Origin: Escherichia coli
GTDB lineage: Bacteria; Pseudomonadota; Gammaproteobacteria; Enterobacterales; Enterobacteriaceae
Length of the DNA stretch: 64,000 nt
Assembly (NCBI RefSeq): GCF_030013205.1
Contig: NZ_CP122648.1
Direction: 5' to 3' (one strand)
Part shown: one piece after another, positions 29,801 through 32,800 of the stretch
How positions within the stretch are numbered: the first letter of the stretch is position 1
How the letters are laid out: each line of letters begins with the position of its first letter
Made by a program: the position numbers

Positions 29801-32800
29801 CAAAATCGCCCGCGGTTTGACGCCGCGCGGCATCGCATGATGTTTCTGCCAGAAACGTAGATAGCTGCCAAACCATGAGCGGTACAGCAACCAGGCGTGA
29901 AAGCGCGGGGAAGAACGGGCAAAGCACCAGGCCGCCAGCAGGATAAACGGCGTCGTCGGTAATACCGGTAATACCACGCCCAGCGTACCCAGCACTACCG
30001 CCAGCCAGCCAATGATGATTAAAATGATTCGTTGCATATTGAGTGTTGTCAGCTTACAGAGTTGCTACTTTAGCATAACAATTATCATTTTCATTGAGGT
30101 CTTATCGTGAAAACCGCCCTGCTGCTGGAAAAACTGGAAGGACAGCTCGCCACGCTGCGCCAGCGTTGTGCCCCGGTAGCGCAATTTGCCACGCTAAGTG
30201 CCCGCTTTGACAGGCACCTTTTTCAGACCCGTGCGACAACACTGCAGGCTTGTCTCGATGAGGCGGGCGATAATCTGGCTGCGCTTCGTCATGCGGTTGA
30301 GCAGCAACAGCTGCCGCAAGTGGCCTGGCTGGCTGAACATCTGGCGGCGCAACTGGAGGCTATAGCGCGTGAAACCATAGCCTGGTCGCTACGCGAGTGG
30401 GATAGCGCACCACCCAAAATTGCCCGCTGGCAGCGTAAACGTATTCAGCATCAGGATTTTGAACGGCGGCTACGTGAGATGGTAGCCGAACGTCGAGCCC
30501 GCCTGGCGCGGGTGACCGATCTCGTGGAACAGCAAACGCTGCATCGTGAAGTGGAAGCCTATGAAGCGCGCCTGGCACGCTGCCGCCATGCGCTGGATAA
30601 AATCGAAAACAGGCTAGCGCGTTTAACCCGCTAGCAATGGAGAAAGTATGTCACTGGAAAATGCCCCTGACGATGTCAAACTGGCTGTCGATTTGATTGT
30701 GCTGCTGGAAGAAAATCAGATCCCAGCGCGCACCGTGCTACGCGCGCTGGATATTGTAAAGCGTGATTATGAAAAGAAGTTACAGAGCGATGAGGCTTCA
30801 CAAAGCGAGTAAAATAAATATCCTCCGGCATAGCCGGAGGTTTTTCAAATGCGCCTATAAGGCTCTCTTACCAGCCGCGCCCTAACAGGCGCACACGATC
30901 TGACATTTGCATCCAACTTCGTTACTTACGGCCCGTAAACGGGCTGCCCGGATAGGGAATCGATAACTGCTCTCCCATTTTATCCTCTTCAAGCTGGTGC
31001 TTTATGTAATCCTGTATCTTCGCCGTGTTCTTACCCACTGTATCGACGTAGTACCCTCTGCACCAGAACTCCCTGTTCCTGTATTTGAATTTCAAATCAC
31101 CAAACTGCTCGTAAAGCATCAGACTGCTTTTCCCTTTCAGATATCCCATAAACCCGGATACGCTCATTTTGGGCGGGATCTCCACAAGCATATGGATATG
31201 ATCTGCACAGCATTCAGCTTCCAGAATCCGTACGCTTTTCCACTCACACAGCTTTCTCAAAATACTGCCTATTGCTCTACGCTTCTCTCTGTAGAACACC
31301 TGTCTTCGGTATTTTGGCGCAAAAACTATGTGATATTTACAGTTCCATCGGGTGTGCGCTAAGCTCTTTTCGTTCCCCATTGGGACCCCCTTTTGATTTC
31401 TTGTTTGACACTTGCAGTTGCCAGACCGCAAGGTGTTTTAACAAATCAAAAGGGGTTTTAATAACTGGCTCAAAGCTGAAAGCTTTCCGGAACCCCCAGC
31501 CTAGCTGGGGGTTTTCTGTGCACAAAAATAAAGGGCGGCATCACTGTCGCCCTTTATTGTCCTTACCCAACCGCTGGTGTCGGATCGTCGCCTTTGTAGT
31601 CGCGTTTTACTTCCGTCACCTCATCGCCCTTCTCGTTGTGCAGATGCACTTCAAGCTGGTTAAAGGCAATGTTGATGTCGTTTTCACGGCACAGCTGATC
31701 GATAGTACGGTTCAGCTCATCGACAGTACGGCTACGGTCACGCAGTTCACGCACATACAGACGCAGCTCATGATCCAACGTGCTGGCACCAAACGCCGTA
31801 AAGAAGACTTCCGGCATTGGTTCGTGCATCACCCTTGGGTGCTCAGTCGCCGCCTTCAGTAACACTTTACGCACTTTTTCCAGATCGGAGCCATAGGCCA
31901 CGCCGAGACGGATCACCAGACGCGTAGTCGTGTCAGTCAACGACCAGTTGATCAGACGCTCGGTAACAAACGCTTTGTTCGGGATGATCACTTCTTTGCG
32001 ATCGAAATCGGTAATCGTTGTCGCACGAATACGGATCTTACTTACCGTCCCCGAGAAGCTACCAATGGTTACCGTATCGCCAATGCGCACCGGACGTTCG
32101 AACAGAATGATCAAACCGGAGACGAAGTTACCGAAGATCTCTTGTAAACCAAAACCAAGACCTACGGATAATGCTGCCGCCAGCCACTGGAGTTTATCCC
32201 AAGAGACGCCCAGCGATCCGAACACCGTCATCGCACCAACGGCAATAATGATGTAGTTAAGGATGGTAGTAATGGCATACGACGCGCCCTGGCGCATGTT
32301 CAGGCGCGAGAGCACCAACACTTCCAACAGACCAGGCAGGTTGCGAATCAACGCCCAGGCTACCATTGAGGCGATAATCGCAAACAACAGACTGCCCATG
32401 GTGACGTTTTTCACCACCGCAGCGCCAGCTTCAGTGCCGTTGTAATGCCAGAGCGTGATGCTATCCAGATAGCTGAACACGGTGATCAAATCAGACCAAA
32501 TTGCCCAGAACATGACACCAAACAGCGCAAACATCAGCAACATGGTAATACGCAGCGTCTGCTGGTTAACCTGCTCCAGTGCAATGGTGGGTTCTTCCGG
32601 CGGTTCAGCACCTTCTGCGCCCTCTTTCACCAGATTCTGCCGACGCGCCAGCGCACGACGCCAGGCGATACGCCGCGCCGCTACGCTTAAGCCGCGCAAT
32701 ACCGTCTGGTACAGCAGGTTCCAGATGATCACCAAATAAACGGTTTCAATCCAACGCCCGGAGAGGCGCAGCGTGGTGTAGAAATAACCCGTGGCGGTCA

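What the first reader, a model, noticed from the sequence alone, without database searches (positions are those of the whole stretch)
30813..31562. IS200-family element between two terminators of convergent genes
A roughly 700-bp IS200-like element with a 152-aa HUH transposase sits between ybaM(+) and mscK(-), flanked by the priC-ybaM terminator hairpin (30822..30846) and the mscK terminator hairpin (31531..31558). IS200/IS605 elements transpose through single-stranded hairpin intermediates and often land next to hairpin structures, which fits this position. The element brings its own left-end hairpin and RBS-sequestering stem and is co-oriented with mscK read-through. As far as I recall K-12 has no IS200, so this is a strain marker.
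Basis: partly seen in the sequence, partly recalled or inferred. Interest (0 to 1): 0.45.

Follow-up and report, generated by a model that had tools for sequence, protein, structure and literature searches.

The report
Ordinary IS200C insertion beside a terminator
This is a complete copy of the well-known small mobile element IS200C, inserted just after the transcription terminator shared by rsmS (ybaM) and mscK; it is ordinary, marks a pig-associated E. coli lineage, and one of the two 'flanking terminators' is actually part of the element.

Summary
The element is real and already known. Window 30813..31524 (712 bp, top strand = minus strand) is an intact IS200C. RefSeq annotates it by that name in an identical genome.

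- **Anatomy:** it encodes a 152-aa HUH/Y1 transposase. [quoted passage not shown]
- **Exact ends:** deleting these 712 bp reconstitutes exactly the empty site found in five other E. coli genomes.
the empty site has a 38-bp spacer with one bidirectional terminator. The hairpin at 30822..30840 is therefore not a resident priC-ybaM terminator. It is the conserved right-end hairpin of IS200, with an invariant end in 51 of 51 copies.
- **Distribution:** this exact insertion occurs in 17-18 of 5,426 complete E. coli genomes. All 17 listed come from swine (O139:H1, ETEC). IS200C itself is in about 2,060 genomes. The two K-12 derivatives checked have none.
- **Target preference (extra result):** across 122 unique insertion sites of this IS200/IS1541 clade, the left end lies directly 3' of a GC-rich hairpin plus T-run in 81% by a strict motif. 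The figure is 98% by folding energy. T-run controls give 7% and 22%. The mscK-side position therefore follows the clade's rule.

Low interest; already known.

The parts
30813..31524 (-). Complete IS200C insertion sequence, 712 bp. The left end (nt 1) is at 31524 and the right end at 30813. The ends are ambiguous by up to 3 nt because they lie in A/T runs (30811..30814 and 31524..31528).
   Evidence: Deleting 30813..31524 reconstitutes exactly the empty site of five other E. coli genomes. The internal 671 bp (30850..31520) are 100% identical to IS200C copies in many genomes. PGAP annotates the identical locus in K_EC180 as IS200C.
30922..31380 (-). tnpA: 152-aa Y1 HUH transposase plus stop codon, with H61-I62-H63, Y125 and Q129.
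   Evidence: ORF list. Pfam Y1_Tnp E=3.8e-38, covering profile positions 2-121 of 121. PDB matches 2EC2 at 4e-23 and IS608 TnpA 2A6M at 4e-19, with the HUH motif and the Tyr aligned. Annotated as WP_000526135.1 at the identical locus.
31491..31513 (-). Left-end perfect palindrome AACCCCCAGC-TAG-GCTGGGGGTT, IS200 nt 12-34. It is the bidirectional terminator that blocks transcription coming in from mscK.
   Evidence: Inverted repeat I6, 10 bp, 100% complementary. First helix of the Rfam STnc490 match. Folds. The function is reported for Salmonella IS200 in PMC4513863 and PMC5435999; it is inferred here.
31387..31456 (-). [quoted passage not shown]
   Evidence: Inverted repeat I1. Rfam STnc490 second helix. 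RNA fold -60.5 kcal/mol, z=-4.3, with the SD inside the stem. Coordinates agree with PMC4513863.
31372..31461 (+). [quoted passage not shown]
   Evidence: Inferred by mapping the art200 5' ends at IS200 nt 153/154 (PMC4513863) onto the window with nt 1 = 31524. Expression was not tested here. The Rfam STnc490 model itself matches the opposite (tnpA-sense) strand at 31390..31513.
30822..30840 (.). Right-end hairpin CCTCCGGC-ATA-GCCGGAGG of IS200. On the + strand it is followed by TTTTT (30841..30845) and probably now terminates rsmS. On the - strand it is followed by ATATTTATT, which is the element's end.
   Evidence: Lies inside the inserted DNA. The sequence GGAGGATATTTATT is invariant in 51/51 unique copies from E. 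coli, Edwardsiella and Y. pestis. Terminator-like on both strands. DNA fold -10 kcal/mol.
31527..31558 (.). Resident bidirectional terminator shared by mscK and, ancestrally, rsmS. Its T-run on the mscK-sense strand (31524..31533 on +) is the insertion target.
   Evidence: Inverted repeat I2, 14 bp. Present unchanged in all five empty sites. DNA fold of this terminator together with the adjacent left-end hairpin gives -23.2 kcal/mol.
30648..30812 (+). rsmS (formerly ybaM), 54 aa and intact. Its stop codon TAA (30810..30812) abuts the IS right end.
   Evidence: Pfam DUF2496 E=3.7e-24. Annotated as RsmS WP_000051143.1 both in the identical locus and in empty-site genomes.

Best explanation
**What it is.** Window 30813..31524 is a complete 712-bp copy of IS200C (IS200/IS605 family, IS200 group; a single gene, tnpA).

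**How it got there.** In an ancestor of a swine-associated E. coli lineage it inserted into the T-run of the single bidirectional terminator that lay between the convergent genes rsmS and mscK. The left end sits directly 3' of the mscK terminator hairpin plus T-run, on the mscK-sense strand. The insertion made no target duplication and removed no host sequence. The likely route is the family's strand-specific single-strand 'peel-and-paste' pathway. In that pathway the Y1 HUH transposase binds the subterminal hairpins, and short sequences next to those hairpins select the cleavage and target sites. Here A-rich sequences 5' of both hairpins could pair with T-rich cleavage sites. This step is inferred from IS608 and ISDra2.

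**Target preference.** The position follows a rule of the clade. The IS200/IS1541 left end is found 3' of a terminator-like hairpin plus T-run at about 80-98% of unique sites. The element's own right end (hairpin plus ATATTTATT) looks like such a target, and tandem copies occur.

**Consequences, inferred.**
- mscK keeps its terminator.
- rsmS is cut off from that terminator and now most likely terminates at the IS right-end hairpin plus T5.
- Read-through from mscK should be stopped by the left-end hairpin.
- tnpA translation should be held down by the SD-sequestering stem and by art200.
- The copy is therefore probably competent but nearly silent.
For: **Identity**
- Pfam Y1_Tnp at 3.8e-38.
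- Rfam STnc490 at 146 bits.
- PDB Y1 transposases with aligned HUH and Tyr.
- PGAP names the element IS200C at the identical locus.
- 100% identity to copies in many genomes.

**Ends and target**
- Five empty sites are reconstituted exactly by deleting 712 bp.
- Canonical IS200 coordinates (hairpin nt 12-34, SD stem nt 69-138, art200 start nt 153/154; PMC4513863) map exactly when nt 1 = 31524.
- The right-end hairpin is part of the element, with an invariant end in 51/51 copies.

**Target rule**
- Six E. coli copies at six loci all follow the terminator of a co-oriented upstream gene: mscK, mdh, ydcL, yfeX, kdsA and fbaB.
- For five of those six sites (all but ydcL, where K-12 carries IS609), the host hairpin is present in empty-site genomes.
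- Of 122 unique left-end flanks, 99 meet a strict hairpin plus T-run motif. The rate is 1.0% at random positions and 7.3% at T4 runs.
- Folding energy of -10 kcal/mol or lower is reached by 98% of flanks against 22% of T-run controls.
- Mean folding energy is -18.3 against -6.8 kcal/mol at random positions (Mann-Whitney p=4e-64).
- A co-oriented ORF ends 30-150 nt upstream at 74/109 sites against 26% of random positions.
- Tandem Y. pestis copies have a left end placed after another copy's right-end hairpin.

**Literature**
- The arrangement of an IS between convergent genes is over-represented for IS200 (PMC9208149).
Against: - Transposition, termination and sRNA expression were not measured. 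All functional statements are transferred from Salmonella IS200 and from IS608/ISDra2.
- The exact cleavage points cannot be fixed within the A/T runs. Empty-site comparison gives 712 bp at two sites (this one and mdh) and 711 bp at two (fbaB, yfeX). At kdsA the K-12 empty site differs by one base. A 1-nt T duplication or T-run slippage therefore cannot be excluded.
- The terminator association could be partly due to survival of harmless insertions rather than to target recognition.
- The lagging-strand orientation rests on weak GC skew and on the K-12 map orientation.
- The insertion could have reached some genomes by recombination of flanking DNA rather than by local transposition.
Confidence: 0.9

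Rival explanations
1. First reader's reading. IS200 landed in a spacer that already held two separate terminators, one for priC-ybaM at 30822..30846 and one for mscK at 31531..31558. Both flanking hairpins would then be host sequence.
For: Both hairpins look like intrinsic terminators in the right orientation for the adjacent genes.
Against: Five empty sites contain only the mscK-side hairpin in a 38-bp spacer. The 30822..30840 hairpin, with identical sequence, is at the right end of every IS200C/IS1541 copy at unrelated loci.
Confidence: 0.02
2. The terminator-adjacent position is not targeted. IS200 would insert at any T-rich single-stranded site, and only copies just downstream of terminators persist because they harm nothing.
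For: Sites just after terminators are among the least harmful. IS200 is reported as over-represented between convergent genes (PMC9208149). The preprint 10.1101/2025.07.22.666184 interprets upstream terminators as favouring persistence.
Against: - The junction is fixed at 3-8 nt after the stem, always on the strand where the T-run follows the hairpin.
- Hairpin association is 81-98% against 7-22% for T-runs in general.
- It holds for the dozens of copies in Y. pestis. From general knowledge, selection against IS insertions in that species is relaxed.
- Left ends also sit after another copy's right-end hairpin.
Confidence: 0.25
3. The copy is a dormant element retained for its RNAs (5'tnpA sRNA and art200) rather than an active transposon. 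It would work mainly as an sRNA locus and as a terminator cassette.
For: IS200 is described as essentially dormant. Its 5'tnpA RNA regulates invF and other genes in Salmonella (PMC5435999; bioRxiv 10.1101/2024.06.26.600842). The 5' region here is fully conserved.
Against: tnpA is intact and identical across many copies. Genomes of this lineage carry 19-33 matching places, and this particular site is occupied only in this lineage, which argues for fairly recent transposition in E. coli. No target of these RNAs is known in E. coli.
Confidence: 0.2

Closest known systems
IS200 of Salmonella enterica (IS200/IS605 family, IS200 group)
   Same: Single tnpA of 152 aa. No terminal inverted repeats. 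Left-end terminator hairpin at nt 12-34, SD-sequestering stem at nt 69-138 and the art200/STnc490 region all map at identical coordinates.
   Different: This is the E. coli variant that NCBI names IS200C. It is 712 bp here against the 707 bp quoted for Salmonella IS200 (PMC4513863). Regulation and RNA functions were not tested in E. coli O139:H1.
IS1541 of Yersinia pestis
   Same: The 23-nt left-end hairpin is identical, and the right end (CCTCCGGCTATGCCGGAGGATATTTATT) is identical. Placement 3' of terminator-like hairpins is the same.
   Different: The first 12 nt differ slightly (TTGTGCCCAGAA against TTGTGCACAGAA). Copy number is far higher in Y. pestis, and tandem copies are seen there.
IS608 (Helicobacter pylori) and ISDra2 (Deinococcus radiodurans): mechanistic paradigms of the family
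   Same: Homologous Y1 HUH transposase (IS608 TnpA E=4e-19). Subterminal hairpins. No target duplication. Insertion 3' of a specific flank sequence abutting the left end (PMC3333891, PMC2806898).
   Different: Those elements recognise a fixed tetra- or pentanucleotide (TTAC, TTGAT), and most family members carry tnpB. The IS200 clade has no tnpB, and its left flank is a structure (hairpin plus T-run) rather than one fixed word. Guide and cleavage-site pairing has not been shown for IS200.
Group IIC introns (bacterial class C group II introns)
   Same: They are mobile elements that insert just downstream of intrinsic-terminator stem-loops, in a fixed orientation. This comparison rests on general knowledge; these introns are mentioned in PMC7923331.
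   Different: Their mechanism is entirely different: ribozyme plus reverse transcriptase retrohoming. They have no HUH transposase.
REP-targeting elements and TnpA-REP (RayT)
   Same: They involve Y1-type recognition of short GC-rich extragenic hairpins, and several ISs use REP hairpins as targets (PMC3333891).
   Different: The targets here are unique gene terminators, not a repeated REP family. TnpA-REP is a separate, domesticated clade.

Membership tests
IS200/IS605 family, IS200 group | Encodes a Y1 HUH transposase with the HUH motif and a single catalytic Tyr | tested here: met
   Pfam PF01797 at 130.7 bits, full-length. H61-I62-H63 and Y125 align with solved IS200-family transposases 2EC2, 2F4F and 2A6M.
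IS200/IS605 family, IS200 group | tnpA is the only gene (no tnpB or iscB) | tested here: met
   The 712-bp element holds one credible ORF. PGAP annotates only tnpA.
IS200/IS605 family, IS200 group | No terminal inverted repeats; a different subterminal hairpin at each end | tested here: met
   Left-end hairpin 31491..31513 and right-end hairpin 30822..30840 have unrelated sequences. No terminal inverted repeats were reported by the repeat search.
IS200/IS605 family, IS200 group | Insertion without target-site duplication | tested here: met
   Removing 712 bp restores the empty site base for base in five genomes. A 1-nt T duplication cannot be excluded, because the ends lie in T/A runs and two other sites give 711 bp.
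IS200/IS605 family, IS200 group | IS200-specific left end: terminator hairpin nt 12-34, SD-sequestering stem nt 69-138, antisense art200/STnc490 region | tested here: met
   Rfam RF01405 at 146.4 bits (gathering score 56), model positions 1-124. The fold shows both helices. The coordinates coincide with PMC4513863.
IS200/IS605 family, IS200 group | Repeated, near-identical copies at unrelated loci (mobility) | tested here: met
   Copies covering at least 80% of the query are in 2,063 of 5,426 genomes, with up to 35 places per genome. Six different loci were examined.
IS200/IS605 family, IS200 group | Strand-specific single-strand transposition, with the top strand on the lagging-strand template | tested here: inconclusive
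   Cumulative GC skew of the window's + strand is weakly negative. mscK is on the + strand at about 0.43 Mb in a K-12 derivative. Both agree with the rule, but neither is decisive.
IS200/IS605 family, IS200 group | Transposase-dependent excision and insertion activity | not testable with these tools
   This needs an in vivo or in vitro assay.
Intrinsic (Rho-independent) terminator, applied to 31527..31558 and to 30822..30845 | GC-rich stem-loop followed by a T-run on the transcribed strand | tested here: met
   Pattern scan and folds. For mscK the sequence is AAAGGGCGACAGTGATGCCGCCCTTTATTTTT. For rsmS it is CCTCCGGCATAGCCGGAGGTTTTT.
Intrinsic (Rho-independent) terminator, applied to 31527..31558 and to 30822..30845 | Transcripts actually end there | not testable with these tools
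   This needs Term-seq or 3' RACE.

The most novel reading that the evidence does not exclude
The IS200/IS1541 clade would not choose a short sequence word, as IS608 and ISDra2 do. It would recognise a structure, namely an intrinsic-terminator-like hairpin followed by a T-run on single-stranded DNA, and insert 3-8 nt after the stem. The target resembles the element's own right end (hairpin plus ATATTTATT). The transposase might therefore treat host terminators as surrogate right ends, which would also explain tandem copies. The element then supplies replacement terminators at both ends and stays harmless. I found this stated only as a statistical over-representation in one preprint. The older IS200 and IS1541 papers could not be read here, so it may already be described.
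Probability: 0.3. Interest if true: 0.5.

Novelty: already known. Interest (0 to 1): 0.2.

Why it matters
For this window it matters little. It is a correctly recognisable, already annotated IS200C copy.

It is useful as a lineage marker: this insertion is present in 17-18 of 5,426 complete E. coli genomes, and all 17 listed are from swine (O139:H1/ETEC).

It also serves as a caution for annotation. The hairpin that now follows rsmS belongs to the IS, so rsmS has exchanged its original terminator for one supplied by the transposon.

The wider point is the near-universal placement of this IS clade right after terminator hairpins, seen in several phyla. This bears on how Y1 transposases without a TnpB partner choose targets, and on why IS200 can reach high copy number while staying harmless.

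Tried and rejected
- **K-12 as the empty-site reference.** Rejected. K-12 derivatives carry a different spacer of about 211 bp, with REP-like palindromes and another terminator. O157:H7 and four other genomes with the 38-bp spacer were used instead.
- **My first count of the A-run in the empty site.** I counted 5 and obtained a 713-bp insert. That was wrong. The recount gives 6 A and 712 bp.
- **Defining the ends from other copies alone.** This gave 711 bp (GTGCAC...ATATTTATT) plus an invariant TT before the left end. Whether that TT is element or target cannot be settled. Empty-site comparison gives 712 bp at this site and mdh, 711 bp at fbaB and yfeX, and a one-base difference at kdsA. The K-12 ydcL-ydcO site was unusable because K-12 has IS609 there.
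- **Other copies in the window.** None. The left-end hairpin occurs once.
- **Weak Rfam matches.** Ysr202 (30 bits against a gathering score of 315), ncS025, MicX and ar15 are far below threshold and are driven by terminator hairpins. I dismissed them.
- **Literature.** Eight full-text searches found no explicit description of terminator-directed insertion by IS200 apart from the 2025 preprint. Five look-ups of three older papers (Beuzon and Casadesus 1997, Beuzon et al. 1999, Odaert et al. 1998) failed because they are not held. One of those look-ups used a guessed PMC id for the Y. pestis KIM genome paper.
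Full report
**1. What is at the coordinates**

The ORF list shows rsmS (the current name of ybaM) at 30648..30812 on the + strand and mscK at 31563..34925 on the - strand. Between them is a - strand ORF whose ATG at 31380 gives a 152-aa protein ending at 30922.

- That protein matches Pfam Y1_Tnp ('Transposase IS200 like') over the whole profile at E=3.8e-38. The neighbours match DUF2496 (RsmS/YbaM) and PriC.
- Against solved structures it aligns with the Sulfolobus IS200-type transposases (2EC2, 4e-23; 2F4F), with IS608 TnpA (2A6M, 4e-19) and with ISDra2 TnpA. 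H61-I62-H63 lies on the HUH motif and Y125 on the catalytic tyrosine.
- Rfam gives one strong match, STnc490 (RF01405), at 31390..31513 on the - strand. It scores 146 bits against a gathering score of 56 and covers model positions 1-124.
- The repeat search and folds show three hairpins. The perfect palindrome is at 31491..31513, the long stem pairs 31387..31402 with 31440..31455, and an 8-bp GC-rich hairpin is at 30822..30840. A 14-bp hairpin lies at 31527..31558.
- The RNA fold of the left 158 nt is -60.5 kcal/mol (z=-4.3). It buries the Shine-Dalgarno sequence AAGGGGGU in the long stem.

**2. Exact ends and target**

A 1,601-bp query spanning the locus matches E. coli K_EC180 at 100%. In that genome PGAP annotates the gene as 'IS200/IS605-like element IS200C family transposase', WP_000526135.1. 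Most other genomes match only the flanks, and they do so in two forms.

- K-12 derivatives have a spacer of about 211 bp, with REP-like palindromes and a different terminator.
- O157:H7 and many others have a 38-bp spacer.

Five genomes of the second form carry the identical sequence GCGAG-TAA-AAAA-TAAAGGGCGGCATCACTGTCGCCCTTTATT. Deleting window 30813..31524 (712 bp) reproduces this sequence exactly. The ends fall in A/T runs, so they can slide by up to 3 nt.

With nt 1 set at 31524, the published IS200 landmarks map exactly (PMC4513863):

| Landmark | IS200 nt | Window position |
|---|---|---|
| Terminator hairpin | 12-34 | 31513..31491 |
| SD-sequestering stem | 69-138 | 31456..31387 |
| art200 5' ends | 153/154 | 31372/31371 |

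The ancestral spacer therefore held one bidirectional terminator, whose A-run begins in the rsmS stop codon.

**3. The 30822..30840 hairpin is the IS200 right end**

Five further IS200C copies were examined at unrelated loci: degS/mdh, ydcO/ydcL, pbp4b/yfeX, ldr/kdsA and gatY/fbaB. All carry the same AAAAACCTCCGGCTATGCCGGAGGATATTTATT before the flank diverges. In 51 of 51 unique complete copies from E. coli, Edwardsiella and Yersinia pestis, the right end reads GGAGGATATTTATT.

On the + strand this hairpin is followed by TTTTT and scores as terminator-like in both directions. I infer that rsmS, now 712 bp away from its original terminator, ends its transcript at the transposon's right-end hairpin. 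mscK keeps its own terminator and T-run unchanged.

**4. Distribution**

- IS200C (at least 80% of a 671-bp internal query) is present in 2,063 of 5,426 complete E. coli genomes, with up to 35 places per genome. More than 30 records hold a 100% identical copy.
- The exact rsmS junction is present in 17 genomes, and 18 genomes match the longer query. All 17 listed are from swine or wild boar (O139:H1, ETEC, K_EC180). These carry 19-33 places matching the query.
- The K-12 derivatives NEB10-beta and TOP10 show a single place for a query that contained the whole element. Only the flanks matched, so they have no IS200C.
- There is no second copy in the window.

**5. Why it sits there**

In all six E. 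coli copies the left end (TT-GTGCACAGAA, then the hairpin) directly follows a GC-rich hairpin plus T-run. In each case this hairpin lies just downstream of a co-oriented upstream gene: mscK, mdh, ydcL, yfeX, kdsA or fbaB. For five of the six sites the same hairpin is present in the empty sites of O157 or K-12, so it is host sequence. The exception is ydcL, where K-12 carries IS609.

A scan of one genome per species for the exact 23-nt left-end hairpin returned at least 120 stretches. These came from Y. pestis (IS1541), Vibrio, Brenneria, Dickeya, Edwardsiella, Budvicia and Pluralibacter. They also came from metagenome-assembled genomes labelled Oxalobacter, Bacillota, Mailhella/Desulfovibrio, Peptococcaceae, Saccharibacteria and Elusimicrobiaceae.

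Results for the 122 unique left flanks:

| Measure | Left flanks | Controls |
|---|---|---|
| Strict hairpin plus T-run motif | 99/122 (81%) | 1.0% of random positions; 2.4% of random positions ending in TT; 7.3% of T4 runs in the same loci |
| Folding energy of -10 kcal/mol or lower, 45 nt upstream | 98% | 22% of T-run controls |
| Mean folding energy, 40 nt upstream | -18.3 kcal/mol | -6.8 kcal/mol at random positions (Mann-Whitney p=4e-64) |
| Co-oriented ORF of 80 or more codons ending 30-150 nt upstream | 74/109 | 26% of random positions |

- The stem ends 3-8 nt before the GTG of the left end in nearly all cases.
- In Y. pestis some left ends follow another copy's right-end hairpin (…GGAGGATATTTATT|GTGCCC). 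The element's own right end therefore behaves like a target.

The mscK-side position and the co-orientation with mscK are thus the rule for this clade.

**6. Mechanism: shown and inferred**

Shown here:
- the anatomy;
- the exact insertion with no loss of host bases and no detectable duplication;
- the conserved ends;
- the structural regularity of the target.

Transferred from the literature:
- IS200/IS605 elements move by strand-specific single-strand excision and insertion, catalysed by TnpA bound to subterminal hairpins. Cleavage and target sites are read by short guide sequences 5' of the hairpin feet, and insertion occurs 3' of the target without duplication (PMC3333891, PMC2806898, PMC5371812).
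- In Salmonella IS200, the left-end hairpin stops about 85% of incoming transcription. The 5'UTR stem represses translation about 20-fold. art200 and Hfq add further repression (PMC4513863, PMC5435999).

My inferences:
- The A-rich bases just 5' of both hairpins (…AGAA at the left end, …GAAAAA at the right end) could pair with T-rich cleavage sites. That would account for the T-run.
- The hairpin requirement goes beyond a simple T-run preference. It may reflect recognition of terminators as right-end look-alikes, or hairpin extrusion on single-stranded lagging-strand template.
- The window's + strand has weakly negative cumulative GC skew, and mscK is on the + strand at about 0.43 Mb in a K-12 derivative. 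Both agree with the IS top strand lying on the lagging-strand template, but the evidence is weak.

**7. Comparison with what is known**

This is a member of the IS200 group. Every sequence-level defining feature that could be tested was met.

The terminator association has been reported statistically. One preprint finds terminator-like sequences immediately upstream of ISs, most strongly for IS200/IS605 (10.1101/2025.07.22.666184). A survey finds IS200 over-represented between convergent genes (PMC9208149).

I found no explicit statement in the held library that the IS200/IS1541 clade targets terminator hairpins. The older primary papers could not be read. I therefore do not claim it as new.

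**8. Verdict**

The finding is an ordinary, already annotated insertion sequence, so interest is low. The one correction of substance is that there were never two terminators here. The element inserted into the T-run of a single shared terminator and brought its own hairpin, which now faces rsmS.

Noticed in passing
L002 (K-12 derivative NEB10-beta) 700..930, compared with window 30790..31580: K-12 has a different rsmS-mscK spacer of about 211 bp, with REP-like palindromes (GCCTGATGCGCTACGCTTATCAGGCC, GCCGGATAAGGCG...) and another terminator. Its RsmS C-terminus also differs (53 aa against 54 aa). O157 and many other strains have the 38-bp spacer instead. The locus is therefore polymorphic independently of IS200.
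   Followed up: partly
L132 (K-12 MG1655) 7162..8909, compared with L005 (strain D10): K-12 carries IS609 (pseudo-tnpA yncK plus insQ/tnpB) in the same ydcL-ydcO spacer where strain D10 carries IS200C. On the ydcO side, both abut the same flank sequence, ATCGGTTTCTG. Two different members of the IS200/IS605 family have therefore used the same spot next to the ydcL terminator.
   Followed up: partly
L009-L012, L016-L037, L053-L069 (genome-contig loci): The exact 23-nt IS200 left-end hairpin occurs in many contigs of metagenome-assembled genomes labelled Oxalobacter, Bacillota, Mailhella/Desulfovibrio, Peptococcaceae, Saccharibacteria and Elusimicrobiaceae. It often lies about 90-110 nt from a contig end, which is typical of assembly breaks at repeats. 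The first 12 nt of the element differ by lineage. Either IS200 relatives with an identical hairpin are spread across phyla, or the bins are contaminated. This was not resolved.
   Followed up: no
L074, L075, L077, L121 (Yersinia pestis NCTC5923): Tandem IS1541 copies have the junction ...CCGGAGGATATTTATT|GTGCCCAGAA. This gives a 711-bp repeat unit that shares the TT. It is compatible either with insertion next to another copy's right end or with a trapped right-end/left-end circle junction.
   Followed up: partly
window 31390..31513: The Rfam STnc490 model matches the tnpA-sense strand and includes the left-end hairpin, which lies upstream of the tnpA start site. Ellis et al. 2015 describe STnc490/art200 as the antisense RNA starting at IS200 nt 153/154. 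The model's strand and extent seem not to correspond to the characterised sRNA.
   Followed up: partly
window 30850..30893: A second, imperfect inverted repeat (TGCGCCTATAAGG / CCTAACAGGCGCA, 18-nt loop) lies between the tnpA stop codon and the right-end hairpin. One arm of it is conserved in IS1541. It could be the transposase-binding subterminal palindrome of the right end. Its role is unknown.
   Followed up: no
L004, L008, L006 and L007 compared with K-12 loci L129-L133: The inserted length inferred from empty sites is not the same at every site. It is 712 bp at mscK and mdh and 711 bp at fbaB and yfeX. At kdsA, K-12 has a C where the occupied strain has a T. This means either T-run slippage, strain polymorphism, or slight flexibility of the cleavage point.
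   Followed up: partly
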